A stretch of DNA of 64,000 bases from Escherichia phage vB_EcoM-ZQ1: the sequence record MW650886.1; one strand, written 5' to 3'. A program made the translations under genes and the position numbers. This document shows positions 39,927 through 55,307 of this stretch, one piece after another. The notes under the pieces were generated by a model, which saw only the letters and a list, made by a program, of their open reading frames with translations, was not told where the DNA came from and did not search any database. Position 1 is the first letter of the stretch, and each line of letters begins with the position of its first letter.

Positions 39927-39976
39927 GATATAGTTCCTTCATTTCAGAGTCAGTGTTGTGCTGCTTATGGAATGAA

Positions 39977-40009: not shown

Positions 40010-40028
40010 ATTCAACTTTTTATTGAAT

Positions 40029-40265
40029 TTATTTAAAACGGTCAGGAAGGGTGTCGTGAACCTCGGCGCTCAGCACCAGAAACTTACCATCCGTCGTTGG
40101 GAAGCAATAGTCTTTCTTGATGTGACGCAAGTGTTCAGCTACAGCTGCCACGCAGTCATCTGTCACGTCGGTCTTCTCACCAACCCACATGCTGGTTTTG
40201 GTGTTCAACCTGCCCTGGAATATAGTACCAGTGAGAGGACTTGCGCCGATCTTTTTGATAATCAT
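40029..40265 (-). CDS. hypothetical protein (78 aa)
   Basis: ORF. Confidence 0.4.
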   Translation of the reverse strand: MIIKKIGASPLTGTIFQGRLNTKTSMWVGEKTDVTDDCVAAVAEHLRHIKKDYCFPTTDGKFLVLSAEVHDTLPDRFK

Positions 40266-40273
40266 GTTTGACC

Positions 40274-40717
40274 TCAGTTGTTAACGCGGAATGCCGCCGG
40301 ATACCCACCTGGATGCCCTTCTCCGGTCACGAAGACCTCGTACCGGGCACCTTTAACCAAACCGGGCAAATTGCCTGAGTCGAGTAGATATCGGATTTTA
40401 TCCATAGTCTCCATCCAGGACTTAGCAGGTTCAGCTTCAGCCTCCCCACGGTTGATTTTGATCACACCCTCTGAATAATACTTCCCACTGTCCTTCATGT
40501 AGTACAGCTTGACGTCGATAAACTGTGGGGATGGAACTTCTGTCCAACCCTCATCGTTCAAATCCTGGCGATCATTGTCGAAACTCTGAAAATCAACATC
40601 ACCGCATGCCAGGCGATAATCTTTGAATTTACGGAAACCTTCCGCCTTGTCCCCAACGGAGCTACGGAAGAACTGTTTCTTGGCGGGACTAATGAAAATG
40701 AAATTCTTGTCACACAT
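40274..40717 (-). CDS. hypothetical protein (147 aa)
   Basis: conserved leader ...GGATCTATATC-ATG. Confidence 0.5.
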   Translation of the reverse strand: MCDKNFIFISPAKKQFFRSSVGDKAEGFRKFKDYRLACGDVDFQSFDNDRQDLNDEGWTEVPSPQFIDVKLYYMKDSGKYYSEGVIKINRGEAEAEPAKSWMETMDKIRYLLDSGNLPGLVKGARYEVFVTGEGHPGGYPAAFRVNN

Positions 40718-40734
40718 GATATAGATCCTTCCTT

Positions 40735-40959
40735 TCAAAGAATGTTGTGTTCGTCGATATCGGACTGCGTTGCAATCTCCCAGCGGACGATGTTCTCGGT
40801 TGTGATGAAATCACGGTTCAGGTGAGAGGCTGGAACATACACCATCGTGTCGACCATGAAGTAACACTGCTCATTGTTACAAGAATCAACGTAAACCTCG
40901 ATGAGGCACACCTCGGCAACACCGGCTTTCGGCTTCTTCACGATCTTTTTCAAGTACAT
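40735..40959 (-). CDS. hypothetical protein (74 aa)
   Basis: internal ATG with GAGGG RBS. Confidence 0.4.
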   Translation of the reverse strand: MYLKKIVKKPKAGVAEVCLIEVYVDSCNNEQCYFMVDTMVYVPASHLNRDFITTENIVRWEIATQSDIDEHNIL

Positions 40960-41022
40960 GGTACAACCCTCGGATAGTAGACGGGGCAATAATACCTCTC
41001 GCCCCGTTATTGAAATGTTCTT

Positions 41023-42495
41023 TTAGTTCAAGACATATTTGATCAGTCCACAATTCCAAATCCTGACCAACCCGGCTTCGGTTGCTAACTGGCTTTCTGT
41101 TTTGCCTTCTACGTCATACCCCATGCGAGCAAATGAACCTTTTCTGAAACCGAATTTGTGCTCACGCATAAATGTGCCAGGCTTGTGATATTTGTAGTCT
41201 GGCTTCTGTACTTCCTCTTCTACGAATCCGTGGGATAGGTAAATGTTGGACAACCTGCTTACAACACACCTATCCCCAAAGGAATAGATTTTGGTGTCGG
41301 CAAATTTTCTTCTGAAGTGTGAAAGAAGTTTACTGAATGCCCCGTGGCAATCATTAGAGGCAAATCTGACTAATTCCAGGCCATCTTTCCTTTTAGTGAA
41401 TAGCATCACGGCTTGTATGACCTCACTCTTGTCAATTAACGACAAATGGTGGGTAGAAGAAACGGAACCTTGTATGTGGTGGTTGTCTAAAAACTCCCTC
41501 AAGCCGCTTATATTCCCCCAAACGACTTTGTGTTGGCGAGCATATGACGCAGGCGTTTTAATGCCAAGTTTAGCTTTCAGAAGAGATTTTACCACTTCCT
41601 GTTTCTCAACCCATTCATCTTCCCAGATGTGGACCAACTGGATACCCTGAGATTCACATATTTCAGTCTTTTCCAGGTGATAATGTTTCTCTTTAAAAAC
41701 TTCTGAATGCCAGTACAGGCCATTAAATTCAATCGCCAATTTGTGTTCAGGGCAATAGATATCCAGTTGTTTACCGGATAATATACTGTAATCAGAAACA
41801 GTGTTTACAACTCCCATTGAGGTGAGAAACTCGGATATTTCCTTTTCATAAGAAGATTTCTTGTTCCTGATAGAACCATTGCTGAACAACGCACGTTTTA
41901 GTATGTTCGAGTTTTTCATAGGGTTGTCAACACCATAACGTTCTTGTAACGTTGCCAACGCCTTCTCCCTCACACCAGGTAATTGTAGTGTGGAGCAGCT
42001 TCCGTATTTGGATATATTCGAAGTCTCTATGGCTTTCCGACCAATACCACCTTTACACATAGAAACCTGATAACATTCTTCAGAACAATATGTTCTGTAA
42101 TCTTTATTATTGATGTAAAAGTTGGTTTCCTTGGAACACACCGGGCATATTTTCACGGTTCTATTGTACATCCAAGCTGTGACTTTACAAGCCAAATCTT
42201 GTAGGGTGTTGTGGGCATTGGCGAACACTAAAAGGTCTACATTGATGTGCTTCATAAGCAGTTCAGATTTGCATTTTTGGATATCCAATTTGTTGTTCTT
42301 GGTAAACATATATTTGTAGAAAAATTGGCGATATGATTCCTCGTCAGACAATTCATTCACTGCTTCAAGGAAACCTTCCGGGAGGTTCTTTAGGGTGTTC
42401 GATGCGAAGGTCTTGCAAGCATCTGAACAAAATTTCTTATCTTTCCTGGATGCTTTGAACTGTTCATGGCAGACACTACAGATTACCTGATACAT
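41023..42495 (-). CDS. free-standing homing-endonuclease-like protein (Zn ribbons, YGV..PMK repeats, Vsr/DUF559-like nuclease domain)
   Basis: Cys clusters, repeated KYGVDNPMK-type modules, AIEFNGLYWH ... HIWEDEW C-terminal domain; paralog of 48475..50274. Confidence 0.6.
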   Translation of the reverse strand: MYQVICSVCHEQFKASRKDKKFCSDACKTFASNTLKNLPEGFLEAVNELSDEESYRQFFYKYMFTKNNKLDIQKCKSELLMKHINVDLLVFANAHNTLQDLACKVTAWMYNRTVKICPVCSKETNFYINNKDYRTYCSEECYQVSMCKGGIGRKAIETSNISKYGSCSTLQLPGVREKALATLQERYGVDNPMKNSNILKRALFSNGSIRNKKSSYEKEISEFLTSMGVVNTVSDYSILSGKQLDIYCPEHKLAIEFNGLYWHSEVFKEKHYHLEKTEICESQGIQLVHIWEDEWVEKQEVVKSLLKAKLGIKTPASYARQHKVVWGNISGLREFLDNHHIQGSVSSTHHLSLIDKSEVIQAVMLFTKRKDGLELVRFASNDCHGAFSKLLSHFRRKFADTKIYSFGDRCVVSRLSNIYLSHGFVEEEVQKPDYKYHKPGTFMREHKFGFRKGSFARMGYDVEGKTESQLATEAGLVRIWNCGLIKYVLN

Positions 42496-42556
42496 AATTA
42501 TTCTCCTCCATATGGTATCTAGTATAACCTGTTCGATAATATGAACAAATAAAAAC

Positions 42557-42572
42557 CCCGCCGAAGCGGGGT
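42557..42572 (-). terminator. stem-loop terminator (identical to 50768..50783)
   Basis: ccccgccgaagcgggg hairpin flanked by A/T tracts. Confidence 0.55.
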
Positions 42573-42600: not shown

Positions 42601-43932
42601 TTAGAACAGGCCTTTGATCAGCCCTTTACGGAAATATACGTTGGTGTCCTTGGCGATACCATCCGCAGTCACATAGACCTGTGGATCCTGGTTCGCTGGG
42701 ATCTGAACGAATGGGTTAGCACAAATCCCGTAGCGGGTCTTGAATGCCATACGTGGTGCGAAGGTGGTTTCACCCTGGGTGCGGTACATTTCCAGCGGTA
42801 CATACGGTGCGAAGAAGATACCAGCGTCCAGTGCGGTTGCGCCTTTGTATGCTAGGGTGATGTATTCTGCTACTGCATACGGGTCGATGTAGACACGCAT
42901 ACCGTTAGACAGCACACCAGCGAAGGTCTGACCAGTCGGATCAATCGCCAGCTTGGTGTTTTCCTGCAGCGCCGGAGCATAATCCAGCATGCCGGACATC
43001 GCCAGAGCGGATGCTACGTTCGGGGAGCACAGAACACGGTTGCCTTTACCACGACGGGTGTCAACACCGATGCCGTTCGCTTCAACTTCCAGCATGAAAG
43101 TCATGTACTTCCATTTTTCCAGCGCCCAACGACCGGAGATGTCAGTGGAGATGTCTACGATACCGTTGGTGCCGAATTTTTTGAAGCGTACTGCGCTGAA
43201 GTTCATGGTGCGGATAAACTCACGGTTCATCTCTGCCTGAATTTCAGTTACCATCACGTCGGACAGGATGCTGTCAACGTCTTCGCCGTGGATCGCCATC
43301 ATGTCCTGGCGCAGTTCGTGGCTGTAGTCAGCGTACAGGCCGCGAGACTTCGCAGTCACGGTTGCTTTCTGAACGGTGATACCAACACGTGCCCATGGGT
43401 TGGTGGTGGTGCCCAGCAGTTCAGCGTCGGAGGTTGACATGCCTTTACCGATGGTGGTGGTAGCAGCGCCGGAACCTTCGATTTCAGTCTGGGAGAAGCC
43501 AGATGGGTCGCCAGCCTGTGCAGTATCGTCACCGGAGTAACCGGAGTTGGCTTCGTTCATGAACAGCTCAGCGCGGGACTGGGCAGTGTTGGAGCCGTCT
43601 GCAACGCCCTGGCGAGCACGCAGTGCGAAGATCTGACCGTCAGGACCAGACAGCGGCTGAACGCCGAAGAAGTCCATCGCGATGTTGACCGGAGCCAGAC
43701 GTTTGGCCATGTCGATCAGGACTGGCTGCCATTTGCCCACAGAGGCGTTCACGGAGCCAGGAGCGTCGGATTCGCCCAGGTTTTTGGCGTTCCACTCAGC
43801 CTGGTTTTGCAGCAGACGGACGGCAACGTTTTCGGCAGAAAGCGGCTGGATGCTTTCAGATTCTTTCTGAAGAACTGGCAGCCACTGCTCGCGCATTTGT
43901 TCAGTAACAAGTTTCTTAGCCATGATGGTCAT
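42601..43932 (-). CDS. 23: major capsid protein, gp23-like
   Basis: 443-aa ORF at the end of portal-protease-scaffold-capsid T4-order module. Confidence 0.7.
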   Translation of the reverse strand: MTIMAKKLVTEQMREQWLPVLQKESESIQPLSAENVAVRLLQNQAEWNAKNLGESDAPGSVNASVGKWQPVLIDMAKRLAPVNIAMDFFGVQPLSGPDGQIFALRARQGVADGSNTAQSRAELFMNEANSGYSGDDTAQAGDPSGFSQTEIEGSGAATTTIGKGMSTSDAELLGTTTNPWARVGITVQKATVTAKSRGLYADYSHELRQDMMAIHGEDVDSILSDVMVTEIQAEMNREFIRTMNFSAVRFKKFGTNGIVDISTDISGRWALEKWKYMTFMLEVEANGIGVDTRRGKGNRVLCSPNVASALAMSGMLDYAPALQENTKLAIDPTGQTFAGVLSNGMRVYIDPYAVAEYITLAYKGATALDAGIFFAPYVPLEMYRTQGETTFAPRMAFKTRYGICANPFVQIPANQDPQVYVTADGIAKDTNVYFRKGLIKGLF

Positions 43933-46113: not shown

Positions 46114-47808
46114 CTATTCTTCACCACCAGGAGGGTTAGTCGCTGGGATGACGTTAGGTCTGAATTTCAGTGGACTGACTTCCCCGCTGCCGAAGCCGCC
46201 GGACTCATCTGCCTGCACTTCAGGGTATTTGCCTTCTTTCTTCTCTTTCGCGATCTTCTCTTGCTGGTCTTTGATGTCTTCATCGGACATACGCAGCAAA
46301 TTGCGTTGAGCAAAATCGATAGAGAAGAGAGTGCCGATATATGGTTCGATCTGACCGAGAGCCGCCATACGCTGTGACAAGATTTCGTTCTCTTGTTGTT
46401 CACGGATGAAGCTGTCAGAAGTGAATTCGAACTTGACGAACGGCTTGATCTTCTCATTCCAGTCAGCCTGATCTGTAATGCCTTTCAATATCAGTTGACG
46501 GCGCAGAAGTTCCAGGAATATACCAGAAGAATAACGACGGCGCAGGCTCGCACAGAACTTGTTGAAGCGCAGTTCTTCCTGTGTGATTTCAGCAAGATTG
46601 GAACCACCGATGTTGATGGAACCTTCCTCTTGCAGGCGGCTCTTAGGGATCATCAGAGCCTCGTAGAGCTTCTCGCGGAAGTATACCACATGATCCATTT
46701 GACCCAGTTGATCGCCACCGCCTACGTTGGAGATCTCGGTTGCGTTCTGCCCTTCGCGACGTGGTAACCAGTAGTCCTCAGCGATACCCATCAAATGAGT
46801 GTTACCAGCCACCTTACCAGTGGTGCGATCATACGCCAGACGGTTCTTGAATTTGCCCATCATGGCTTGCATGTATTCTTCGGCCGACTTCTTACCCAGC
46901 GTACCCACGTCGAGATAGAACGCTCGCTTCTCAGGAGCACGTGTGATCGCATAGATCACTGTTGCATCTTCAGTTGTAACAAGGTTGTTCAGGGGACGGA
47001 TAGCTGGGTTCAGCAGGCTTGGTACAACCCCATTCGCCAGAGGCTCTTCACCACTGTCCAGATACACTATGCTCTCATCATCAAACACCAGCTCTTGCTG
47101 TGACGGTTGGAAGTTCTGAGACGTACCGGACTGGCCAGTGAATTGGTTGCGGTTGTAGTTCGGGTTGTAGTAGTATTGAAGTTTTACGTCATTGATGACT
47201 TCGATACCGTCGCGCATCGCCTTTTGAACGATGTATACAGGACGGATACAGCGTGAGTCCATCATGATGAGTTTGGCGATACCCGCTTTCTTGTTCTTCG
47301 GGTCCACTACAACGTGGAATGCCTGACGGCCTTCAATATACCATTTGCGGATCTTCTGATACGCTGTGTTGTCAAAGTCAAGGAGATGCATGATCTCTTT
47401 GAATGCGTCAGTGATCTTCTCTTTGACTTCGTCTGTGATGCCATCTACCTTTTCCAGGTTGATGGTTACAGGAGTCTCTTCCTCTTCACAAGTGACGACG
47501 TCGTTGACAATGATATCCACAGCCTTACGAATCTCAGGCTGCTGAGCCATAGACTGGTACTCTTCGACCAGCTGTTTGACGTTGAGCAACTCATTCTCAA
47601 CACCAACGAAATTGAATGTGTTCGCGCCGCCCTGGAGGATGATGGAACCATCCTGAGAATCGTCCAGCGCAACAACAGTCGCTTTTGAAAGCAACTTCTC
47701 TTCTTGGTTCGTGACCATCTTGTCGGTATCAATCGGCGCTTCTACTTTGCCGCCTCTACCGAACAGGCCGAAGAACCCATTTCCGAATGCACCATTACCG
47801 AATGCCAT
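46114..47808 (-). CDS. 20: portal protein, gp20-like
   Basis: 564-aa ORF in T4-order position. Confidence 0.65.
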   Translation of the reverse strand: MAFGNGAFGNGFFGLFGRGGKVEAPIDTDKMVTNQEEKLLSKATVVALDDSQDGSIILQGGANTFNFVGVENELLNVKQLVEEYQSMAQQPEIRKAVDIIVNDVVTCEEEETPVTINLEKVDGITDEVKEKITDAFKEIMHLLDFDNTAYQKIRKWYIEGRQAFHVVVDPKNKKAGIAKLIMMDSRCIRPVYIVQKAMRDGIEVINDVKLQYYYNPNYNRNQFTGQSGTSQNFQPSQQELVFDDESIVYLDSGEEPLANGVVPSLLNPAIRPLNNLVTTEDATVIYAITRAPEKRAFYLDVGTLGKKSAEEYMQAMMGKFKNRLAYDRTTGKVAGNTHLMGIAEDYWLPRREGQNATEISNVGGGDQLGQMDHVVYFREKLYEALMIPKSRLQEEGSINIGGSNLAEITQEELRFNKFCASLRRRYSSGIFLELLRRQLILKGITDQADWNEKIKPFVKFEFTSDSFIREQQENEILSQRMAALGQIEPYIGTLFSIDFAQRNLLRMSDEDIKDQQEKIAKEKKEGKYPEVQADESGGFGSGEVSPLKFRPNVIPATNPPGGEE

Positions 47809-47874: not shown

Positions 47875-48408
47875 TTAGAGAGACTTGTCTGAAATGGCCT
47901 GGAAGTAACGCAGGTCAACAGTGAACTGAGTATAAGAGTCCATTGCAGACATGTCCAGTTCCAGCTGACCGAGGTTCTGAGGCCAGGTGCCCTGAAGGGT
48001 CCAGGTCTTGGTGACGTTGTCATTCGCATCCAGCAGTTCCATGATTACATCACGGAAATAATCATCTGGGTTAGCAGACGCACGGTTGTTGTTGCTACCG
48101 TTGATATACTGCTGCCAGACTTCGAATGCGTTGTACGGGGCGTTGTCCACGACGTTGATGAACGTCACAGGCAGAGCCTCGAAGCGGCGGTCACCTGGGA
48201 ATGGAAGTTCACGACCACCCCATGGGACGAGTATTTCCCCGAGCTGGCCTGTTGGGGTATTTGTGGTCACTGCCAACAGCGAAACATCACGGATAGTATC
48301 GCTTCCAGCCACGAAGGAAGGGAAGTTAACAGTCACACGCCAACGGTGTTGGCGCTGAACGCCGCCCCCGCGTGACATAGCTGCTCTGAATTCATTAACT
48401 GTAGCCAT
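47875..48408 (-). CDS. 19: tail tube protein, gp19-like
   Basis: 177 aa; C-terminal TWPQNLGQLELD resembles T4 gp19 LWPTNVGELQLD. Confidence 0.7.
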   Translation of the reverse strand: MATVNEFRAAMSRGGGVQRQHRWRVTVNFPSFVAGSDTIRDVSLLAVTTNTPTGQLGEILVPWGGRELPFPGDRRFEALPVTFINVVDNAPYNAFEVWQQYINGSNNNRASANPDDYFRDVIMELLDANDNVTKTWTLQGTWPQNLGQLELDMSAMDSYTQFTVDLRYFQAISDKSL

Positions 48409-48430
48409 GGTCGTTCTCCTCTGAATAGTG

Positions 48431-48441
48431 TAAATATTTAG
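48431..48441. promoter_or_regulatory. palindromic late-promoter-like element TAAATATTTA (bidirectional)
   Basis: reads CTAAATA on minus strand toward tube gene and GTAAATA on plus strand toward the endonuclease gene. Confidence 0.4.
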
Positions 48442-48474
48442 TTTTGAAATAAATGGGGGTTAAAATACTCCAAA

Positions 48475-50274
48475 GTGAGGATATTTATTATGCCATTCCC
48501 CGATAAAAATTGTTCATGCTGCCACAAACCGTTCACCCCAACCAGGAAGGCTGCGTTGTATTGTAGTGACGAATGTAAATCATTCATGCTGGGAACGATG
48601 AAACGCAATCCGAGTTTGTTGGATAACATCCCGACGACCGAAACCGAATGCCGCTCTTGGGTTGATAGTAAACTCAGGAAGAAAGATGGTTCGTTGAACT
48701 ACAAACTTATCTCTCATCCCCTACTCACGGCCCATACTGGGGTTGATGTTGTTGGATACGTGGTGTCACACAACGACCTATTAGAAGAACCACAAGCGAT
48801 AACTGCTTGGCTGTACGATATTCCGAAGTCGCAGTGTGTCACTTGCGGTGCTGACGTTGGCTTAGAAATGGAAGCCCAACCACCCAGATACAAAAAGTTT
48901 TGTTCCGAAGAATGTCAACGAGAATCGATGAAGGCGGGAGGCTCAGAACGGACCAACCTAGAAAGCGCCATATCAGAGAAATATGGCGTTTCTAGCACAT
49001 TCCAGCTGGAAGAAGTAAAACAAAAGTCACGGGAAACTGTCCTTAAGAAATATGGGGTCGACCACCCTATGAAGTCTGATGTTATAAAGGACAGAGTGGC
49101 TGCTTCCGTCATGGAACGCTATGGCGTATCACACGTCATGAAAATGCCAGAAGTGAGGGAAAGGGTGATTGAGACTTGGAGGAAGATCTATGGTGTGGAT
49201 CATCCAATGTTCCTCAATTCCATTATAGAAAAGAGAAAGAAAACATGCGTCTTAAAATATGGGGTTGATTATCCGTTGAAGGTAAAGGCTATATGGGATA
49301 GAAGCCAGGTCAATACCAGGATCATTTCAAAAGAAAAATACGGCGTACCTCACTATTTCTCTTCTGAAGAATATAGGAACTCTTTCACGTACCCCAGCAG
49401 CCAAAGCCAAACACAGCCAGAAATAGAAATATGTTCATATCTGGAGTCATTGGGCGTTATATGCGAATCTGGTAATTTCTCCATCCTCAGAGGTAAAATG
49501 TTCGACGGAAGGGTGACCACACGCCAGATAGACATATACTGCCCAGAACATAAGTTGGCAATAGAATTTAACGGCTTGTACTGGCATACAGAGAAACATC
49601 GATACAAAGACTACCATCTTGAAAAGACCATGTACTGTGAAGCCCAGGGTGTTCAATTAATCCATATCTGGGAAGATGAGTGGCGTGACAAACGGGAAGT
49701 GGTTAAATCACTCCTTAAAGCAAAATTGGGGATAGGGAAACCATTGTCATACGCTCGCCAACATACCATTTTAGAAGGCTCCTATAGGACGTCCAAGGAC
49801 TTTCTCGACCGATTCCATATACAAGGTGGTGTGGTGGCGACAGATTATATACACCTTGTAGACAAAACTGGGAATATCCAGGCGGTGATGTTGTTTACCA
49901 AACGAGTGCATGGTATTGAATTGGTGAGATTTGCTTCTAACAATTGTCATGGCGCATTCTCACGCTTGCTGAAATATTATATCGCTCGACATCGGGGTGA
50001 GACAGTATATTCTTTTGGTGATCGTTGTGTTGTCAGTCGTCTGAAAAATGTTTACCTGAATAACGGATTTGTTGAAAAGGAAATCCTTCCCCCTGATTAC
50101 AAATATGTGACTCCGGACTATGGCTCACGTATACACAAATTCAATTTCAGGAAAGAGAAATTCCTTAAACTTGGATACGATGTAGAAGGTAAAACAGAGG
50201 ATATGCTGGCGATAGAAGCCGGGTTGGGGCGTATCTGGGGGTGTGGTCTTATCCGGTATGAACTGGAAAACTAA
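48475..50274 (+). CDS. free-standing homing-endonuclease-like protein (paralog of 41023..42495)
   Basis: plus-strand gene inside minus-strand tail module; same Zn-ribbon, YGV..PMK repeat and Vsr/DUF559-like domain. Confidence 0.65.
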   Translation: MRIFIMPFPDKNCSCCHKPFTPTRKAALYCSDECKSFMLGTMKRNPSLLDNIPTTETECRSWVDSKLRKKDGSLNYKLISHPLLTAHTGVDVVGYVVSHNDLLEEPQAITAWLYDIPKSQCVTCGADVGLEMEAQPPRYKKFCSEECQRESMKAGGSERTNLESAISEKYGVSSTFQLEEVKQKSRETVLKKYGVDHPMKSDVIKDRVAASVMERYGVSHVMKMPEVRERVIETWRKIYGVDHPMFLNSIIEKRKKTCVLKYGVDYPLKVKAIWDRSQVNTRIISKEKYGVPHYFSSEEYRNSFTYPSSQSQTQPEIEICSYLESLGVICESGNFSILRGKMFDGRVTTRQIDIYCPEHKLAIEFNGLYWHTEKHRYKDYHLEKTMYCEAQGVQLIHIWEDEWRDKREVVKSLLKAKLGIGKPLSYARQHTILEGSYRTSKDFLDRFHIQGGVVATDYIHLVDKTGNIQAVMLFTKRVHGIELVRFASNNCHGAFSRLLKYYIARHRGETVYSFGDRCVVSRLKNVYLNNGFVEKEILPPDYKYVTPDYGSRIHKFNFRKEKFLKLGYDVEGKTEDMLAIEAGLGRIWGCGLIRYELEN

Positions 50275-50276
50275 AA

Positions 50277-50292
50277 CCCCGCCTCAGCGGGG
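50277..50292. terminator. bidirectional stem-loop terminator
   Basis: ccccgcctcagcgggg hairpin between convergent genes. Confidence 0.5.
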
Positions 50293-50299
50293 TAAACTA

Positions 50300-50656
50300 C
50301 TATTTGCGAATGCTAACCTGAGCATAATACACATAATAATCACCGTGGGCACGGAAGCTGGTGAGGTGGAAGGTGACGAGGTGGCTCCCGAAAGCTACAA
50401 CTTTGGTATCTGGGGAGCATAAATCATTAGCTAGTTCACCCAGAACCTTACCACAAAACTCCCCAACAATAGCGTTAAATCTGTCAATGTGTGGACTGGT
50501 CACCGTCATTGGACCAACATCTGCACAGTAGATCCCTTTTATCATCTTTCCCTGGCTGTCGCGTACTGGCTTTGCAGGCTGGTAAGGATTGATGCGGCGT
50601 TTCAGGTTACAGAGGCCGATTTCTTTCAGGATAGCGTTAATTTCGGTCTTGGTCAT
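50300..50656 (-). CDS. hypothetical early protein (118 aa)
   Basis: conserved leader ...GGAACTATATC-ATG and early promoter. Confidence 0.5.
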   Translation of the reverse strand: MTKTEINAILKEIGLCNLKRRINPYQPAKPVRDSQGKMIKGIYCADVGPMTVTSPHIDRFNAIVGEFCGKVLGELANDLCSPDTKVVAFGSHLVTFHLTSFRAHGDYYVYYAQVSIRK

Positions 50657-50704
50657 GATATAGTTCCTTCGTTTCAAGTTGGTGTCGTACTGCTTATGTT
50701 TAGA

Positions 50705-50733
50705 ATTATACGTGAGTTATTGAAGAAGTAAAG
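50705..50733 (-). promoter_or_regulatory. T4-type early promoter (-35 TTTACT, -10 TATAAT)
   Basis: TTTACT - 16 bp - TATAAT. Confidence 0.5.
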
Positions 50734-50767
50734 TAATTCAATAAAATAATCTGGGAAAAATTTAAAA

Positions 50768-50783
50768 CCCCGCCGAAGCGGGG
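50768..50783 (-). terminator. stem-loop terminator (identical to 42557..42572)
   Basis: ccccgccgaagcgggg hairpin. Confidence 0.55.
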
Positions 50784-50788
50784 TCTTG

Positions 50789-51091
50789 TTACACTTTGCT
50801 GTATTTCTTAAACAATTTACCGAGTTCACCTGGGGCTTCTCGAGTTCCAGCAGCTTTGCTAACAACCTGTTTATCTTTCTTCAGGTCGAATACTTTGATC
50901 TCTTTGCCATTATATGTATATTCAAAATCATCAATGGTTATGCGGAAGAAATCTCCAAATACTCCATTTTCGATATCACCCTTTTTGAGCCTTACATCTT
51001 GGTCTTCCAACCATTCAATCACGGAGTCTTTAACTTTCTGAAGGTCACCTTTTAGGCCTGCTTCTGCTAAAAATTGAGAAAAACTTTTCAT
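50789..51091 (-). CDS. hypothetical protein (100 aa)
   Basis: ORF with GAGG RBS directly after sheath terminator. Confidence 0.45.
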   Translation of the reverse strand: MKSFSQFLAEAGLKGDLQKVKDSVIEWLEDQDVRLKKGDIENGVFGDFFRITIDDFEYTYNGKEIKVFDLKKDKQVVSKAAGTREAPGELGKLFKKYSKV

Positions 51092-51102
51092 AACAATACC
51101 TC

Positions 51103-51120
51103 AATGTGCCCTCCGAAGAG
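51103..51120 (-). terminator. stem-loop terminator
   Basis: tgccctc-cgaa-gagggca hairpin downstream of sheath gene. Confidence 0.45.
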
Positions 51121-51133
51121 GGCATGGAGTAAA

Positions 51134-53029
51134 TTAAGAAGCGGCTACGATACCACCACCAGTTTCGATCTCGCTGAACTCCATGTCCGGACGTACCGCA
51201 GCAAAGTCCAGATACACCCAGTTGATGGAGTATTCTGGTTTCAGCCAGATACCCGCGACCATCTGGTTCGCAGCGATAACATCAGCGGTGTTGTTGTCCT
51301 CGTCACACTTCACCATCCCGTCATAGATCGCGCCCATGTTGGCCAACTGGCGGATATATGGGCGGACAGCGTTGCTGAACAACCCACGAGTGAATGCATC
51401 GTTGTTCTCACCAAGGTAGTATTTGGCGATGGCTGCGATGTTCTGTTCTGCCATAATGAACAGACCACGAACGTTGATGCGGTCGAACGCAGATGGGCGG
51501 GTCAGGCCAGTCTTGTCGCCGTACAACACGATGCCTTCGTTGGAGAAGGTGACGATGCTGTTGATCTGGTTGCGATACAGCACAGCACGCTCATCAGAAG
51601 ACGCAGACCACGCCATTCGATTATAGTTGTTGTATTTACCACGGTTGTGGAACGCTGGAGACTTGTAGATACCCGCGATTTCAATGCTTCGCGCCCAAAC
51701 ACCTGCGGTGCCGCCACAAGCCGGAATCCAACGCATTTTGTCGTTGTACTTGTCGTACACATACGCCCAGTTGTCATCCATGAAGAAGTAGGAGGAGTCG
51801 CGAACAAGGCTTTCACGCCAGGCCACAACATCATCCATCTCACGGCCACGGTTTCCGACGACCGTATCGCGAAGAGGAGACACGAAGGACACTGTGTCTT
51901 TACGCTCAGTGGACAGGTCGATCAGTGCCTGCTGCTCAATCAGTTCTTCACAGAAACCGAACACTGGCTTGGCATCATACGCTTCGGCGTTGTTCAGTGC
52001 CTGGATAGCCGCAACACGGTTCCCAGTGTAATCGTCTACACCACCTTCGAGTTCAATGACACCAGCAGCCAGGGTAGTGGCGAAGGTGTACACCCAATTT
52101 GAGGTGTCGTTGATCACGTCTTTGAAGTACGCATTGGATCCATCAGATTTCTTAGAACCCTGAGCGGTCTGCACCAGTTCATACTTCTCGATGATCGTAC
52201 CGGAAGCACCAACAGTGGTGACGGCAGCGGTAGCAGTCAGACCATTCGCGTCTGGAACAATCGCAGTCGCAGCCTGAGGACCGATTGCTTTGTGAGTGAC
52301 GGTGACGGTGTTGGACTTCACGACAACAGAAGAATACACTTCAGACAGGGACGTCAGCGCAGTTCCGATCTTTGTCGCCAGAGTCGCCGGGGTGTCAGCG
52401 TCAGTGTACGCCACGGCTTCACCAGCAACAGAGATGGAACCAGCAGCGGTGGCAGTACCGGATACAGAGATACGATCAACCTGGCTAACAGCACCAGAAG
52501 AGTCGGTGATGCGACCTACTTTGTCAACGATGGCGATATGGTACTCGCCATCCTGCGGAGCATATGCGAAGTTGTTACGGAATTCCCAGGTCGGGAACAG
52601 CGCAGCGTCACAGATGTTCACAGCAATGTCGTTACCCAGAGAGCCAGCATAGCGGCCTGTCCAGGTAATAGACGCAGATGGAGACGCAGTTTCGAAGTCT
52701 AATTTGTTGCGGATAAGGATTGCAGTCTGACCTTTGGTTACAGCGTTGCGTGCCGCCGGACCGACCACACGGGTCACCCATGCAACAGAGCTGTAAGACA
52801 GGAAGTCAGCAATCACTAAGAAGTCGGTGGCAGTTGCATCGTTTGGCTTGAAGAATTTCTTCACCAGACCAGTTTCGCCACCAGTGACCAACACAGGGAG
52901 TTCTGCTTCACCCCATTGGAATTTGCCGACAGTCGCACCCTGAACAACAACGGATGGAGACGTCTGAAGCGTGGCATCACGCTCAGTCCACTGTACGGAC
53001 GGCGCAACGCTGAAGCTTTGAGTTGCCAT
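51134..53029 (-). CDS. 18: tail sheath protein, gp18-like
   Basis: N-terminal GKFQWGEA matches T4 gp18 GKFQWGPA; 631 aa; start at internal ATG 53029. Confidence 0.8.
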   Translation of the reverse strand: MATQSFSVAPSVQWTERDATLQTSPSVVVQGATVGKFQWGEAELPVLVTGGETGLVKKFFKPNDATATDFLVIADFLSYSSVAWVTRVVGPAARNAVTKGQTAILIRNKLDFETASPSASITWTGRYAGSLGNDIAVNICDAALFPTWEFRNNFAYAPQDGEYHIAIVDKVGRITDSSGAVSQVDRISVSGTATAAGSISVAGEAVAYTDADTPATLATKIGTALTSLSEVYSSVVVKSNTVTVTHKAIGPQAATAIVPDANGLTATAAVTTVGASGTIIEKYELVQTAQGSKKSDGSNAYFKDVINDTSNWVYTFATTLAAGVIELEGGVDDYTGNRVAAIQALNNAEAYDAKPVFGFCEELIEQQALIDLSTERKDTVSFVSPLRDTVVGNRGREMDDVVAWRESLVRDSSYFFMDDNWAYVYDKYNDKMRWIPACGGTAGVWARSIEIAGIYKSPAFHNRGKYNNYNRMAWSASSDERAVLYRNQINSIVTFSNEGIVLYGDKTGLTRPSAFDRINVRGLFIMAEQNIAAIAKYYLGENNDAFTRGLFSNAVRPYIRQLANMGAIYDGMVKCDEDNNTADVIAANQMVAGIWLKPEYSINWVYLDFAAVRPDMEFSEIETGGGIVAAS

Positions 53030-53081: not shown

Positions 53082-55307
53082 TCACCGTCTCAGCCATTCT
53101 TCCATAGACATACCAGAGCGTTCATCATAAACCTGAATTCCACCGAACCCTGAGATGTTCTCCACAGAGTGAGGATCTGGCGTCGACATCATACCCCCAA
53201 ATGGTAGCATCTGAGATTCTTCCATCGCAGACAACCGTCCTCTCATGTCCACAGAGATATTTGAATTGGTGAGATCACTAAACCATTCTTGTTTCACCGC
53301 CCATGCATACAACACGAGGGGCATTACACAGTCATCATGACAACCATCATCGGCTTCATACCTTGTTCCAGTCCATACGAATGTACTGAGTTCATCTATC
53401 GTGTCCTGGTCATCTATCACCAGCATTTCACGTTCAATCAGGGCTTTCAGGTTGGCACAGCCGTTTGTGCGCACCTTCTTGTTGGTATTGATACCAGGCT
53501 CAGGGCGGCGACCACCGATTCTCTTGCCTGTACCCTTGGTATCTGTTGTAGTGAATATGATCTCGGGATATTCAATTTCCTGATATAGAATTGTGATTAC
53601 CTGACCACCCACGTCGTTGTTGGTCTCGACTAGCATCGGGCACGTTCCATACTTCTCACCCATATCGGCGATTGTGTACGCATACATCATTGGAGGTATC
53701 GTGTTATTTCGATACTTGGCTGCGATCTTGTGAGGATAGTCTGTGATGTCGATAATGGTCAGTACAGAATAATCCCCTTCGACACCCTTGCCTGTATCTG
53801 CGATACCCATATAGATGCGCTTAGGATCGTAGTCGTGATAAATCTTGGTGAACTCGTTCGGCTCCTGGTACAGCTTCGAGGTCATCTTGTCCAGACACTT
53901 GGCAGGTATCAGTGATCCCACAGAACCACGGAACTTAATGCCAAATTCTTGATCGAAACGCGCATCACCCAGCTTCGCCCTTTGTTTGGATTCCCAGTCT
54001 GGATCTTTGGTGTACGTTGGAACACGATACCATGGGACCTCGGTGAGTTTGAAGTCGTTGTATTGTGGGTGTTCTGGGTTCGCCTTGGTGACGATGTCGT
54101 AGAACAACCCGCGCTGACCTTTCGGCGTACTGGTCAGAATACAACGTGAAGTCTCTGCAGATGCAATCGCCGGGAATGTAGACTCCCAGAATTCAAAGTC
54201 GTTTTCAATGAACGCCACTTCGTCCACATACAGGAGCGATACAGATCGACCACGGATGGAGTCGGAAGATGTCGCATAGGCGTAGATCTTTGATCCGTTT
54301 TCGAACTCGATCAGTGTGGAACCGAACTTCTCACAACCCTGTTGGAGGAAGAATGGCAAATCTTGATATGCTTTGCGAATACGATCTAGGATTTCAATCG
54401 CCTGCTTCTCTTTGTTCGCCAGTACTGCGATCTCTTTGTCGGAGTGGAACATCGCATACCAGAGCAGGAACGCTGCCACGACTGTCGTGTTGTGGCTGAG
54501 GAAGCCGTTGGTGTAGTAGCGCTGATCACTAGATTTCACCTGTAGGTCATACATGTGATGCGTCTCACCAGTCTGCCAAACCTCGCGGATTTCTTCTGGA
54601 CCTTCTGACGTCATGATGTATGACCCAGCATTCAGGTCTTTGGCAAATATCTCCTTCATTTCCGGAGTGAAGAATATATGTTCGTCGGCCACGTTAATTC
54701 GCCGCCCAGTAACAGTCACAATAACGAATTCCGCATATTTCTTCGTCTTATGCGCTGCGATAACCGGAACCCAGCCACTATCGGATTGCACAAAGTAACG
54801 TTTGCCAAAGCGGCTGTCCACGAACTTGTCATGGTTGCCAATGGTATTCAGCGGCACAGCGTGGTTGACGTCCTCGAAGCGGCTGTGAAGCTCCCCTATG
54901 GTTAGGAGCAACTGCTCTTGGCTGAGAGTATCGTAAACTGTGACAAGCGTGTCACCTTTTACACATTTCCCAGACTGACGAGCCTGGACGACCGCATTGA
55001 ATCGATAGTCCTGGAAGTCATGGAACAACTGCTTCTGATAATCGTGCATGTCAAAGAGGATGAAGCCTTTATCGATGGTCGTGATCTTGTAGTAGTTGGC
55101 AGCGAAGTAATGGGCGTCCATCGCACACTCGACGAACTCCGATTCTTGTTCGTCGGTTAGCATCAACTCCACACGAGGAGCGCGCACAGACGGCTTGCGC
55201 ATGAACGTTTGGTCCATACGCAGTCTGACGTCTGGTGTTTTAAAACCAGTTTTCTCTGGTGCCCAATCTATCTCTTTTTTATACGCCATCGTCTTCACCT
55301 TCTCCAT
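53082..55307 (-). CDS. 17: terminase large subunit, gp17-like, interrupted by a mini-intein
   Basis: exteins read ...VVQARQSGK / TTVVAAFLLW, matching T4 gp17 Walker A SRQLGKTTVVAIFLAHF. Confidence 0.85.
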   Translation of the reverse strand: MEKVKTMAYKKEIDWAPEKTGFKTPDVRLRMDQTFMRKPSVRAPRVELMLTDEQESEFVECAMDAHYFAANYYKITTIDKGFILFDMHDYQKQLFHDFQDYRFNAVVQARQSGKCVKGDTLVTVYDTLSQEQLLLTIGELHSRFEDVNHAVPLNTIGNHDKFVDSRFGKRYFVQSDSGWVPVIAAHKTKKYAEFVIVTVTGRRINVADEHIFFTPEMKEIFAKDLNAGSYIMTSEGPEEIREVWQTGETHHMYDLQVKSSDQRYYTNGFLSHNTTVVAAFLLWYAMFHSDKEIAVLANKEKQAIEILDRIRKAYQDLPFFLQQGCEKFGSTLIEFENGSKIYAYATSSDSIRGRSVSLLYVDEVAFIENDFEFWESTFPAIASAETSRCILTSTPKGQRGLFYDIVTKANPEHPQYNDFKLTEVPWYRVPTYTKDPDWESKQRAKLGDARFDQEFGIKFRGSVGSLIPAKCLDKMTSKLYQEPNEFTKIYHDYDPKRIYMGIADTGKGVEGDYSVLTIIDITDYPHKIAAKYRNNTIPPMMYAYTIADMGEKYGTCPMLVETNNDVGGQVITILYQEIEYPEIIFTTTDTKGTGKRIGGRRPEPGINTNKKVRTNGCANLKALIEREMLVIDDQDTIDELSTFVWTGTRYEADDGCHDDCVMPLVLYAWAVKQEWFSDLTNSNISVDMRGRLSAMEESQMLPFGGMMSTPDPHSVENISGFGGIQVYDERSGMSMEEWLRR
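54489..54965 (-). mobile_element. mini-intein (159 aa) in terminase Walker A P-loop
   Basis: starts Cys (CVKGDTLV), block-B-like INVADEHIFFT, block F/G YDLQV ... TNGFLSHN followed by Thr; no endonuclease domain. Confidence 0.75.

What the first reader, a model, noticed from the sequence alone, without database searches (positions are those of the whole stretch)
48409..51133. Insertion island between tail tube and tail sheath genes
In T4, genes 18 and 19 are adjacent. Here about 2.7 kb separates them, holding a plus-strand endonuclease gene, an early-promoter-driven 118-aa gene with its own terminators, and a 100-aa gene. An early-type promoter cassette inside a late structural operon suggests a moron-like acquisition.
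Basis: inference. Interest (0 to 1): 0.45.

Follow-up and report, generated by a model that had tools for sequence, protein, structure and literature searches.

The report
Homing endonuclease hotspot with hitchhiker cassettes
The 2.7-kb gap between the tail tube and tail sheath genes of this ViI-like (Ackermannviridae) coliphage holds a selfish Hef-like homing endonuclease gene already described at this site in a related phage, plus two small portable gene cassettes; it is real and was acquired, but it is ordinary for this phage family.

Summary
Tail tube gp19 (47875-48408) and tail sheath gp18 (51134-53029) are separated by 2,725 bp. The gap holds a plus-strand 594-aa endonuclease gene, a 118-aa gene with a sigma70-type promoter between two terminators, and a 100-aa gene.

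The window is about 99% identical to Escherichia phages A221, PC3 and LHE287 (Ackermannviridae). The gap is three independent modules, not one island.
- **Endonuclease module.** This is the orthologue of F-LimVIII, the Hef-like free-standing homing endonuclease published at this site in Dickeya phage LIMEstone1.
- **118-aa module.** Its stem-loop, early-type promoter and leader recur elsewhere in the window and across the family in front of different genes. This matches the PeSL mobile regulatory cassettes of T4-type phages. In Klebsiella phage Magnus the same gene sits after the major capsid gene.
- **100-aa module.** This is a separate 347-bp indel, 95% identical to Magnus against 80% for the flanks.

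43 of 44 sampled family members carry something in this gap, mostly GIY-YIG endonucleases. Only Erwinia phage phiEa2809 is empty.

The mobile modules are more similar between genera than the structural flanks. The tube-gene end next to the endonuclease shows a co-conversion-like identity gradient.

The functions of both small proteins are unknown. This is a known kind of feature, of low to moderate interest.

The parts
47875..48408 (-). Tail tube gene gp19 (177 aa), left flank of the site. Its 5' ~160 bp (48251-48408) behaves as a co-conversion tract travelling with the endonuclease gene.
   Evidence: Pfam PF06841 and phrog_45. Identity to the Hef-carrying phages maane and LIMEstone1 rises from 83-86% (distal) to 96-98% (proximal). 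It does not rise versus Hef-less Magnus (91% distal, 79% proximal).
48431..48441 (.). Palindrome TAAATATTTA giving a late-promoter-like (C)TAAATA in both directions: CTAAATA 48441-48435 on the minus strand for gp19, and TAAATA 48431-48436 on the plus strand, possibly for the endonuclease gene.
   Evidence: The same CTAAATA sits 20-45 nt upstream of the ATG of gp22, gp18, gp19 and other minus-strand genes. It is annotated as 'putative late promoter' in both directions in LIMEstone1. It is also present in the empty site of phiEa2809. The T4 consensus TATAAATA is not enriched.
48490..50274 (+). Hef-like free-standing homing endonuclease gene (594 aa from ATG 48490; alternative GTG at 48475), the orthologue of F-LimVIII. 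Layout by residue: two CxxC...CxxxC zinc-ribbon-like motifs (8-29, 116-142); six ~23-aa (K/R)YGV repeats = DUF7487 (about 160-305); a Vsr/EDxHD-type PD-(D/E)XK nuclease core (about 310-415; nt 49417-49734); a conserved C-terminal domain (416-594).
   Evidence: phrog_3339 E=3.5e-191; Pfam DUF7487 at 87.7 bits against a cutoff of 27. A family profile hits PDB 3r3p at E=6.5e-6 over the whole nuclease domain. All 21 invariant family residues are present. Nucleotide identity to LIMEstone1 F-LimVIII is 89%. Repeats and Cys motifs were located.
50276..50293 (.). Stem-loop CCCCGC-CTCA-GCGGGG between the convergent endonuclease and 118-aa genes. It is followed by a U-tract only on the minus strand, so it is the terminator of the 118-aa gene. 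It is the left copy of the 27-nt direct repeat (50267-50293).
50300..50656 (-). 118-aa gene (phrog_13016 / VOG8808 family, function unknown). It encodes a compact alpha+beta protein.
50657..50763 (-). PeSL-like regulatory cassette of the 118-aa gene: an A/T-rich upstream element, -35 TTTACT (50732-50727), -10 TATAAT (50710-50705), and a conserved leader CATAAGCAGTACGACACCAAC-TTGAAACGAAGGAACTATATC ending at the ATG.
   Evidence: The non-coding blocks are nearly invariant versus Magnus, although the protein is only 55% identical. The same promoter and leader recur at about 6828-6935 and 39931-40003 in the window. They also precede at least five unrelated ORFs in other Ackermannviridae genomes.
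50764..50787 (-). Intrinsic terminator AAGACCCCGC-TTCG-GCGGGGTTTT plus a T-run. It ends the gp18/100-aa transcript and forms the stem-loop half of the PeSL-like unit. It is the right copy of the 27-nt direct repeat (50758-50784).
   Evidence: An identical stem-loop sits downstream of the capsid gene at 42556-42571. The same stem-loop directly follows gp18 in A221, PC3, maane, LIMEstone1, EP75, SW16-7 and aagejoakim.
50789..51091 (-). 100-aa gene (no family assignment). It is part of a 347-bp indel module (50791-51137). It has no promoter of its own and carries its own SD (GAGG), so it is probably co-transcribed with gp18.
   Evidence: It is absent from A221 and PC3, with clean junctions. It is found in only 6 phage records. 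The module is 95.4% nt identical to Klebsiella phage Magnus, against 79.8% for the flanks. In SKML-39 it lies downstream of a 1,323-nt unannotated ORF of capsid-gene size. The AlphaFold model has low confidence (pLDDT 65).
51108..51123 (-). Hairpin GCCCTC-TTCG-GAGGGC just after the gp18 stop codon, with no U-tract. It is a relic of the leader of a GIY-YIG endonuclease gene.
   Evidence: Fold z-score -3.4. In RPN242 and STML-13-1 the same hairpin lies 7 nt before the GIY-YIG gene's ATG, and its 3' arm GGAGGG is the Shine-Dalgarno sequence. A copy survives beside the Hef gene in LIMEstone1.
51134..53029 (-). Tail sheath gene gp18 (631 aa from the ATG used in relatives), right flank. The last ~140 bp (51134-51275) exists as two alleles among relatives that are 98-99% identical overall.
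   Evidence: There are 21-26 mostly synonymous differences in 51128-51275 versus PC3 and RPN242, but only 1-2 versus A221 and LHE287.

Best explanation
The gap is a recombination and homing hotspot at a natural transcription-unit boundary. The ancestral intergenic region was 'gp18 terminator + gp19 late promoter', as in phiEa2809. In this phage the gap has accumulated three independent mobile modules.

(1) An intact Hef-like free-standing homing endonuclease gene, the F-LimVIII orthologue. Its product has zinc-ribbon and DUF7487 repeats for presumed DNA binding, and a Vsr/EDxHD-type nuclease core. In a mixed infection it would cut the endonuclease-less allele near the 5' end of gp19. Double-strand-break repair off the endonuclease-carrying genome would then copy in the gene together with neighbouring DNA.

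(2) A PeSL-type cassette: stem-loop terminator, sigma70 early-type promoter, conserved leader, a 118-aa ORFan and a second stem-loop. It moves by homologous recombination between the repeated stem-loop/promoter sequences. At this site it also hitch-hikes on the endonuclease gene.

(3) A 347-bp module carrying a 100-aa ORFan, slotted between an old GIY-YIG leader hairpin and the terminator, and read from the late gp18 transcript.

gp19 keeps its own late promoter immediately upstream, so none of the insertions disturbs virion gene expression.

Shown here: the gene content, homologies, presence/absence pattern, mosaic identity and repeated regulatory cassette. Inferred: cleavage, homing, promoter timing and any benefit of the small proteins.
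For: **Family and site.** The window is 98-99% identical to the Ackermannviridae coliphages A221, PC3, PH4 and LHE287.

**Module independence.**
- A221 and PC3 lack exactly 50791-51137.
- LHE287 and a Logan contig retain both small genes, but the endonuclease gene is reduced to a ~340-bp remnant. The remnant arose by a 1,460-bp deletion at AACT microhomology plus a frameshift.
- LIMEstone1 has only the endonuclease gene.
- RPN242 has a GIY-YIG gene in place of everything.
- Magnus has the 100-aa gene plus a GIY-YIG gene.

**Hotspot.** In a spread sample, 43 of 44 Ackermannviridae have at least 540 bp between gp19 and gp18. The occupants fall into four endonuclease lineages: three GIY-YIG subtypes and Hef. 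phiEa2809 is empty, with a 77-bp gap containing a terminator and CTAAATA.

**Endonuclease identity.** phrog_3339 E=3.5e-191; DUF7487 above Pfam's cutoff; family profile versus I-Bth0305I (3r3p) E=6.5e-6; invariant residues intact. The element is published as the Hef-like F-LimVIII at this position (PMC3296691).

**Horizontal movement.**
- Endonuclease module: 91.3% identical to maane and 89.3% to LIMEstone1, against pooled structural flanks of 79.1% and 84.0% (Fisher p=2e-29 and 4e-8). One stretch, 49050-49350, is 99.3% identical to LIMEstone1.
- 118-aa module: 91.3% identical to maane (p=3e-12).
- 100-aa module: 95.4% identical to Magnus against 79.8% for the flanks (p=6e-16).
- The gp19 5' end next to the Hef gene is 97.5% and 95.6% identical, against 83-86% distally. 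This holds only in Hef-carrying comparisons.

**PeSL-like cassette.**
- A 27-nt direct repeat of the stem-loop flanks the 118-aa module.
- The promoter and leader recur three times in the window, against 0 expected.
- The same ~110-nt cassette precedes different ORFs in Kuttervirus, Taipeivirus and Limestonevirus genomes.
- Orthologous 118-aa genes carry different -10/leader variants, which implies crossovers inside the cassette.
- The gene sits after the capsid-gene terminator in Magnus. In the window, an identical stem-loop and a second Hef gene lie at that position.
- PeSL definition and behaviour: PMC2839356 and PMC4122927.
Against: - No experiment supports this: cleavage, homing, promoter timing and terminator function all rest on sequence.
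- Single-sequence hits of the nuclease domain to Pfam DUF559 and MTES_1575, and to NCBIfam Vsr, are below curated cutoffs. Only the profile search is significant.
- The Fisher tests treat sites as independent and ignore differences in selective constraint.
- On the gp18 side there is no clean identity gradient.
- PeSLs were defined in Straboviridae hyperplastic regions, not inside a structural module, and I found no paper describing them in Ackermannviridae.
- The plus-strand TAAATA upstream of the endonuclease gene lacks the usual preceding C, so its promoter is uncertain.
- The functions of the two small proteins remain unknown.
Confidence: 0.8

Rival explanations
1. One composite island (endonuclease + 118-aa + 100-aa) was acquired en bloc as a single moron-like insertion, possibly from outside the phage family.
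For: The three genes are contiguous and lower in G+C than the flanks. The endonuclease and 118-aa genes do appear together in A221, PC3, maane, Mutine and KE31, and they are jointly more similar across genera than the flanks.
Against: Each module occurs without the others, with clean junctions at stem-loops: the endonuclease gene alone in LIMEstone1, the 100-aa gene without the other two in Magnus, and the 118-aa gene alone after the capsid gene in Magnus. The nearest relatives of all three genes are in Ackermannviridae or other T4-like phages, not in hosts. The exact three-gene combination was not found in any database record.
Confidence: 0.07
2. The genes are ancestral to the family at this site and were lost elsewhere. 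The tight gp18-gp19 adjacency in T4 and phiEa2809 would then be derived.
For: 43 of 44 sampled family members have an occupied gap.
Against: The occupants belong to at least four unrelated or distantly related endonuclease lineages, on either strand. The modules are more similar between genera than the flanking essential genes, the opposite of what vertical descent predicts. The 118-aa and 100-aa genes are found in only 9 and 6 records at or above 76% identity, and they sit at different loci in other genera. The phiEa2809 gap holds just a terminator and a late promoter.
Confidence: 0.05
3. The endonuclease and the 118-aa protein form a functional pair or small system. Examples would be a phage-versus-phage weapon with a protective or regulatory partner, or an anti-defence gene deliberately carried as endonuclease cargo. 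On this view they are not unrelated neighbours.
For: They are convergent and share a terminator. Wherever the 118-aa orthologue (>=87% aa) lies in this gap, a Hef gene or its remnant is adjacent. The two genes show jointly elevated identity to maane. The 118-aa gene is retained intact in LHE287 after the endonuclease gene decayed, which suggests it is selected for itself.
Against: The 118-aa family occurs without any adjacent Hef gene in Taipeivirus, Kuttervirus and T4-like phages. F-LimVIII occurs without the 118-aa gene in about 20 Dickeya phages. There are no PADLOC, Pfam or NCBIfam hits and no informative fold match. Adjacency is the expected result of simple hitch-hiking.
Confidence: 0.1
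4. The small ORFs are not real genes, and the region is decaying junk left by successive endonuclease invasions.
For: Endonuclease remnants do litter the site: the LHE287 pseudogene, the GIY-YIG leader remnant in LIMEstone1, and the relic hairpin at 51108-51123. The 100-aa protein has no family, few homologues and a low-confidence model.
Against: The 118-aa ORF is conserved at the protein level down to 27-37% identity in distant phages, and it folds with pLDDT 92.6. The 100-aa ORF is intact in all 7 homologues at 77-98% identity, with a conserved core and its own SD. Both have well-placed ribosome-binding sites.
Confidence: 0.05

Closest known systems
F-LimVIII, the putative Hef-like free-standing homing endonuclease of Dickeya phage vB_DsoM_LIMEstone1 (Adriaenssens et al. 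2012, PMC3296691)
   Same: [quoted passage not shown] It shares 89% nucleotide and 89% amino-acid identity, the same upstream TAAATATTTA palindrome and the same downstream stem-loop.
   Different: In LIMEstone1 it is the only gene in the gap and is flanked by a GIY-YIG remnant. Here it is accompanied by the 118-aa and 100-aa modules. The activity of F-LimVIII itself has never been tested.
Hef (homing endonuclease-like function) of T4-related phage U5, and free-standing seg/mob endonuclease genes of T4 (Sandegren et al. 2005, cited in PMC3296691; from my own knowledge, paper not held)
   Same: A free-standing endonuclease gene sits in an intergenic gap between conserved genes. Different endonuclease families replace one another at the same site. 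Flanking markers are co-converted.
   Different: The relationship to U5 Hef was taken from annotations ('Hef-like' in LIMEstone1, Acinetobacter phage 133 and Campylobacter CPX). It was not tested directly against the U5 sequence.
I-Bth0305I (PDB 3r3p), the EDxHD / Vsr-like PD-(D/E)XK homing endonuclease of Bacillus phage 0305phi8-36
   Same: The nuclease core aligns over about 90 residues, including the KLAIE-x-NG-x-YW and ED motifs (profile E=6.5e-6).
   Different: I-Bth0305I is intron-encoded and has a different DNA-binding region. The protein here adds zinc ribbons, six DUF7487 repeats and a ~180-aa C-terminal domain of unknown role, which has only a non-significant GNAT-like hint (E=0.42).
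PeSL (promoter-early stem-loop) mobile regulatory cassettes of T4-type phages RB49/phi1, PST/T4 and nt-1/KVP40 (Arbiol et al. 2010, PMC2839356; Comeau et al. 2014, PMC4122927)
   Same: A G/C stem-loop terminator (GGGG...CCCC type) sits next to an A/T-rich upstream element and a strong sigma70-like promoter. The unit is repeated in the genome, flanks ORFans, marks indel junctions between close relatives, and precedes different genes in different genomes.
   Different: It is described for Straboviridae hyperplastic regions. Here it is in Ackermannviridae and inside the late structural block. The conserved unit also includes a ~45-nt leader and RBS. Promoter and terminator activity and mini-circles were not tested.
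Morons of lambdoid prophages (Hendrix and colleagues; from my own knowledge)
   Same: An autonomous promoter-gene-terminator unit is inserted between two genes that are adjacent in relatives, and its base composition differs from its surroundings.
   Different: Morons are defined in temperate phages and are expressed from the prophage. This is a virulent T4-like phage, and the cassette uses the phage family's own early promoter.

Membership tests
Hef-like / DUF7487 homing endonucleases (F-Lim III, VII, VIII, X type) | Full-length sequence homology to the family | tested here: met
   phrog_3339 E=3.5e-191 over residues 33-598. Pfam DUF7487 scores 87.7 bits against a cutoff of 27. There are 3,168 homologues at E<=1e-5, including F-LimIII, VII and X. 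Identity to F-LimVIII is 89%.
Hef-like / DUF7487 homing endonucleases | Intact Vsr/EDxHD-type PD-(D/E)XK nuclease core | tested here: met
   The family profile hits 3r3p at E=6.5e-6. All invariant columns (D348, E359, H366, H376, K379, E395, D396 and others) are present in the window protein. Single-sequence hits to DUF559, MTES_1575 and Vsr are below curated cutoffs.
Hef-like / DUF7487 homing endonucleases | Free-standing gene with presence/absence polymorphism at a fixed site between conserved genes | tested here: met
   It is present in 25 records at this site. It is absent, replaced or decayed in close relatives (RPN242, LHE287), and phiEa2809 has an empty site.
Hef-like / DUF7487 homing endonucleases | Signature of horizontal spread with co-conversion of flanks | tested here: met
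   The endonuclease module is 89-91% identical against 79-84% for the flanks. The adjacent gp19 5' end is 96-98% identical, only in Hef-carrying comparisons.
Hef-like / DUF7487 homing endonucleases | Site-specific cleavage of the endonuclease-less allele and super-Mendelian inheritance in mixed infection | not testable with these tools
   This requires enzyme assays and phage crosses.
PeSL mobile regulatory cassettes | Composite of a G/C-rich stem-loop, an A/T-rich upstream element and a sigma70-like early promoter | tested here: met
   Stem-loop at 50787-50764, A/T-rich block at 50763-50733, and TTTACT-16-TATAAT at 50732-50705.
PeSL mobile regulatory cassettes | Repeated within the genome, and preceding different ORFans in related genomes | tested here: met
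   Three copies in the 64-kb window against about 0 expected. The same cassette precedes at least five different ORFs in Kuttervirus, Taipeivirus and Limestonevirus contigs.
PeSL mobile regulatory cassettes | Indel and replacement junctions between close relatives fall in the cassette or stem-loops | tested here: met
   The junctions of A221, PC3, LIMEstone1 and maane fall at the CCCCGC..GCGGGG stem-loop. A 27-nt direct repeat flanks the 118-aa module. The -10/leader variant is swapped between orthologous cassettes.
PeSL mobile regulatory cassettes | Demonstrated promoter and terminator activity; excised mini-circles | not testable with these tools
   This requires reporter assays and PCR on infected cells.
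PeSL mobile regulatory cassettes | Located in hyperplastic regions of T4-type (Straboviridae) genomes | tested here: not met
   Here the host is an Ackermannviridae phage and the cassette lies between two late structural genes. The other two copies in the window do lie among small variable genes. So it works like a PeSL, but it is not a member of the originally described set.
Moron | Autonomous promoter-gene-terminator unit inserted between genes that are adjacent in relatives | tested here: met
Moron | Carried by a temperate phage and expressed from the prophage (lysogenic conversion) | tested here: not met
   The genome type is a virulent T4-like Ackermannviridae phage. The promoter is the phage family's own repeated early-type promoter.

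The most novel reading that the evidence does not exclude
The most novel reading is that this gap shows two phage gene-mobility mechanisms coupled together. A PeSL-type cassette carrying an early ORFan (the 118-aa protein) has docked next to a Hef-like homing endonuclease gene. The two now spread between genera (E. coli Aglimvirinae and Salmonella Kuttervirus) as one homing unit, with the endonuclease acting as a vehicle for a selectively useful early gene such as a host-takeover or anti-defence factor. PeSL-like cassettes would also then be a family-wide shuffling system in Ackermannviridae, extending into the structural core. I found no description of this in the searchable literature.
Probability: 0.2. 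Interest if true: 0.5.

Novelty: new member of a known kind. Interest (0 to 1): 0.27.

Why it matters
On its own this matters little. It adds one more documented example of a free-standing homing endonuclease hotspot in a phage family already known for having many such genes.

It does have some value as a worked example. A single intergenic boundary between two essential late genes records the following:
- succession of four endonuclease lineages;
- a decaying endonuclease gene in a sister phage;
- a co-conversion tract;
- two ORFan cassettes exchanged between phages of E. coli, Salmonella and Klebsiella.

It also suggests that the PeSL shuffling mechanism described for T4-type phages operates in Ackermannviridae. 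Several members of this family are used for biocontrol and therapy. There, endonuclease-driven marker exchange in phage cocktails, and the unknown early genes, are practical concerns.

Tried and rejected
- **T4 late-promoter consensus.** TATAAATA is not enriched in the window (2 matches against 0.64 expected). The family motif is (C)TAAATA instead.
- **Generic sigma70 scan.** The scan is barely above shuffles (14 against 8.4). The promoter claim therefore rests on conservation and recurrence, not on the scan.
- **Rfam.** There are only sub-threshold hits, RsmY at 25.7 bits against a gathering score of 57 and P9 at 23.1 against 43. Both lie over the terminator hairpins and were rejected as terminator-driven.
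- **Function of the 100-aa protein.** No family was found and there are only 4 homologue clusters. The model has pLDDT 65, so the fold hits were disregarded, apart from the self-match to the Magnus orthologue.
- **C-terminal domain of the endonuclease.** The GNAT-like hit at E=0.42 is not significant.
- **16-mer scan of viral contigs.** It returned many hits in unrelated contigs that are probably chance matches. Only the hits in Ackermannviridae-sized genomes were used.
- **Literature.** The Sandegren 2005 Hef paper is not held. No transcriptome paper for Ackermannviridae promoters was found.
- **Target-site duplications or terminal inverted repeats around the island.** None was found beyond the stem-loop repeat.

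Full report
**1. What is there**

The window is a T4-like structural block on the minus strand:
- portal gp20 (46114-47808);
- tail tube gp19 (47875-48408);
- tail sheath gp18 (51134-53029/53062);
- large terminase gp17 (53082-55307).

Between gp19 and gp18 lie 2,725 bp (48409-51133), which contain three genes:
- a plus-strand ORF of 594 aa (ATG 48490; an upstream GTG at 48475 gives 599 aa) ending at 50274;
- a minus-strand 118-aa gene (50656-50300);
- a minus-strand 100-aa gene (51091-50789).

The promoter/terminator scan found its best sigma70 match in the 6-kb region just upstream of the 118-aa gene: TTTACT-16-TATAAT at 50732..50705, 10/12 matches. It also found strong intrinsic terminators on both sides of that gene, at 50787-50764 and 50293-50276. 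Both fold stably. The island has lower G+C (0.38-0.48) than the flanks (0.49-0.55).

**2. Whose genome, and what relatives carry**

Megablast places the window in Ackermannviridae. It is 98-99% identical to Escherichia phages A221, PC3, PH4 and LHE287, and 81-87% identical to Limestonevirus, Kuttervirus and Taipeivirus. No record covers more than 95% of the 6.5-kb query, so this exact gene combination is not in the database.

Pairwise comparison with annotations shows three independent modules:
- A221 and PC3 lack exactly 50791-51137, the 100-aa module.
- LHE287, and a 153-kb Logan contig, keep both small genes. They have lost 48700-50161 of the endonuclease gene through a deletion at an AACT microhomology, and they also carry a frameshift near the start.
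- LIMEstone1 has only the endonuclease gene.
- RPN242 replaces everything from 48409 to 51106 with a 237-aa GIY-YIG endonuclease gene on the other strand.
- Klebsiella phage Magnus has gp18, the 100-aa gene, a GIY-YIG gene and then gp19.

**3. The site is a family-wide endonuclease hotspot**

I took a spread sample of records matching both flanks and inspected several loci. In 43 of 44 Ackermannviridae there are at least 540 bp between gp19 and gp18.
- The commonest occupant is a 152-aa GIY-YIG gene.
- Others carry a 237-240-aa GIY-YIG gene, both of these together, or a 262-264-aa GIY-YIG relative on the opposite strand.
- Hef-like genes account for the rest.

BLASTP groups the occupants into three GIY-YIG subtypes plus the unrelated Hef family. 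Only Erwinia phage phiEa2809 is empty. Its 77-bp gap is just a terminator hairpin followed by CTAAATA and the gp19 ribosome-binding site.

CTAAATA recurs 20-45 nt upstream of gp22, gp19, gp18 and other late genes in the window. It is what LIMEstone1's authors annotated as late promoters. The insertion point is thus a natural boundary between two late transcription units. This explains why it tolerates cargo: gp19 keeps its own late promoter at 48441-48435.

**4. The endonuclease**

The sequence evidence is as follows:
- It matches phrog_3339 'homing endonuclease' (E=3.5e-191) and Pfam DUF7487 (87.7 bits, cutoff 27).
- It has more than 3,000 homologues, including F-LimIII, VII and X.
- It is 89% identical to LIMEstone1 F-LimVIII.

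Adriaenssens et al. 2012 listed F-LimVIII as a Hef-like free-standing endonuclease on the opposite strand next to the tail tube gene (PMC3296691).

A profile of 23 family members hits the solved catalytic domain of I-Bth0305I (3r3p, a Vsr-like EDxHD homing endonuclease) at E=6.5e-6 over the whole core. The window protein retains all invariant residues. Single-sequence hits to DUF559, MTES_1575 and Vsr are sub-threshold.

Upstream of the core are two CxxC...CxxxC motifs and six ~23-residue (K/R)YGV repeats. I infer these to be the DNA-binding part. A second paralogue (41% aa identity) lies at 41023-42495, right after the capsid gene.

**5. Evidence that the modules move**

Identities between the window and three phages of other genera:

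| Segment | maane (Kuttervirus) | LIMEstone1 | Magnus |
|---|---|---|---|
| Pooled structural flanks | 79.1% | 84.0% | 79.8% |
| Endonuclease module | 91.3% (p=2e-29) | 89.3% (p=4e-8) | absent |
| 118-aa module | 91.3% (p=3e-12) | absent | not at this site |
| 100-aa module | absent | absent | 95.4% (p=6e-16) |
| gp19, 158 bp next to the endonuclease gene | 97.5% | 95.6% | 79.1% |
| gp19, distal part | 83.2% | 85.9% | 91.2% |

- Against LIMEstone1, one 300-bp stretch (49050-49350) is 99.3% identical.
- The high identity of the proximal gp19 segment is seen only against Hef-carrying phages. Against Hef-less Magnus the same segment is 79.1%, so it is not intrinsically conserved. This is the pattern expected from endonuclease-initiated repair with co-conversion of flanks.
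- The p-values are Fisher tests that treat sites as independent. They are indicative rather than rigorous.
- On the gp18 side there is no gradient. However, the last ~140 bp of gp18 exists as two alleles among phages that are otherwise 98-99% identical.

**6. The 118-aa cassette is PeSL-like**

I aligned the cassette from the window, A221, maane and Magnus, where it sits directly after the capsid-gene terminator. The two stem-loops, the block TTATTGAAT(T/C)ACTTTACTTCTTCAATA and the leader TTGAAACGAAGGAACTA..ATG are almost invariant, although the proteins are only 55% identical.

The same promoter and leader occur at about 6828-6935 and 39931-40003 in the window, each next to a G/C stem-loop. 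The matches number 3-6 against 0-0.1 expected.

In other Ackermannviridae genomes the same ~110-nt unit precedes at least five different ORFs. The unit consists of an A/T-rich element, a GGGGC..GCCCC stem-loop, CTTTACTTCTTCAATA, TATA(A/C)T and the leader. One of those ORFs is a 30%-identical paralogue of the 118-aa gene near regB in Kuttervirus.

The window's cassette carries the -10/leader variant that precedes an unrelated gene in EP75-type phages, whereas maane's orthologue carries another variant. This implies crossovers within the cassette. A 27-nt direct repeat of the stem-loop (50267-50293 / 50758-50784) brackets the module. An identical CCCCGCCGAAGCGGGG stem-loop follows the capsid gene at 42556-42571.

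All of this matches the published definition and behaviour of PeSLs: sigma70-like promoter, A/T-rich upstream element and GGGG...CCCC stem-loop, repeated, flanking ORFans, and mediating indels by homologous recombination (PMC2839356, PMC4122927). Those papers deal with T4-type Straboviridae hyperplastic regions. I found no paper linking PeSLs to Ackermannviridae. 'Moron-like' describes the architecture correctly, but the prophage-expression criterion does not apply.

**7. The 100-aa module and the relic hairpin**

After the gp18 stop codon lies a hairpin, GCCCTC-TTCG-GAGGGC (51123-51108), with no U-tract.
- In RPN242 and STML-13-1 the same hairpin lies 7 nt before the GIY-YIG gene's ATG, and its 3' arm GGAGGG is the Shine-Dalgarno sequence. 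This resembles the RBS-occluding hairpins known for T4 endonuclease genes (my own knowledge).
- In the window and in Magnus the 100-aa gene, with its own GAGG, is inserted right after the hairpin and ends at the common terminator.
- LIMEstone1 retains the hairpin, a duplicated gp19 RBS/ATG and about 190 bp of GIY-YIG 5' remnant next to its Hef gene.

So Hef probably arrived at a site previously held by a GIY-YIG element.

**8. Function of the small proteins**

The 118-aa protein gives a confident alpha+beta model (pLDDT 92.6). It has no informative neighbour, and the searchable databases hold only uncharacterised phage homologues.

The 100-aa protein has few homologues and a weak model.

Neither protein hits the defence or anti-defence models in PADLOC. 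My working guess is that the 118-aa protein is an accessory early (host-interaction) protein. That is inference from its promoter type only.

**9. Verdict**

The core element is a published kind of object at a published site. The added value is the dissection into three modules, the hotspot survey, the co-conversion signature and the PeSL-like cassette in a family where I could not find it described. The novelty class is 'new member of a known kind', and the interest is low to moderate.

Noticed in passing
window 54489-54965 (within gp17, 53082-55307, minus strand): The large terminase carries a 159-aa mini-intein (residues 115-273) inserted in the Walker A motif: ARQSGK|C...SHN|TTVV. Pfam Intein_splicing scores below its cutoff (28.8 bits against 35.8). 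Relatives annotate a 'terminase large subunit precursor' or a 'pretoxin HINT domain protein'.
   Followed up: partly
window 41023-42495 (minus strand): A second Hef-like homing endonuclease gene (490 aa, 41% aa identity to the island copy) lies immediately downstream of the major capsid gene (42601-43932) and its terminator. This is the position of F-LimVII in LIMEstone1. In Magnus the homologue of the 118-aa gene occupies this position instead.
   Followed up: partly
window ~6828-6935 and ~39931-40035 (minus strand): Two further copies of the PeSL-like stem-loop, promoter and leader unit drive unrelated small genes (MTQLKNFT... and a 93-aa ORF at 39645-39926). In the 39976-40003 copy the stem (CGGGG...CCCCG) brackets the -35 element and spacer.
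   Followed up: partly
window 38800-41000 versus L007 (Magnus): The region downstream of the capsid gene behaves as a hyperplastic region. Only some small genes are shared with Magnus (075, 076, 078, 081 and 082-like), and others are replaced.
   Followed up: partly
window 51134-51275 (3' end of gp18): There are two alleles among phages that are otherwise 98-99% identical. The window, A221 and LHE287 carry one allele; PC3 and RPN242 carry the other. They differ by 21-26 mostly synonymous changes in about 140 bp. The allele does not track which endonuclease gene is present. It may mark a recombination tract or an endonuclease target or resistance polymorphism.
   Followed up: partly
L004 (LIMEstone1) 1911-2117: A ~200-bp remnant lies between gp19 and F-LimVIII. 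It contains a duplicated gp19 RBS/ATG, the GCCCTC..GAGGGC hairpin and the start of a long-type GIY-YIG gene. This is evidence of endonuclease succession at the site.
   Followed up: yes
L002 (LHE287) 1910-2325 and L016 (Logan SRR27680619 contig) 4792-5207: The Hef gene is reduced to a ~340-bp pseudogene (a 1,460-bp internal deletion at AACT microhomology plus a frameshift), while both small cassettes stay intact. This is the decay stage of the homing endonuclease life cycle.
   Followed up: yes
window 48431-48440: The perfect palindrome TAAATATTTA places a late-promoter-like hexamer in both directions, towards gp19 and towards the endonuclease gene. The selfish gene may borrow gp19's late promoter sequence in reverse.
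   Followed up: no
window 51085-51140 (minus-strand RNA): The minimum-energy fold extends the relic hairpin so that UACU upstream of it pairs with AGGU, part of the GAGG Shine-Dalgarno of the 100-aa gene (z-score -3.4). This could attenuate translation of that gene.
   Followed up: no
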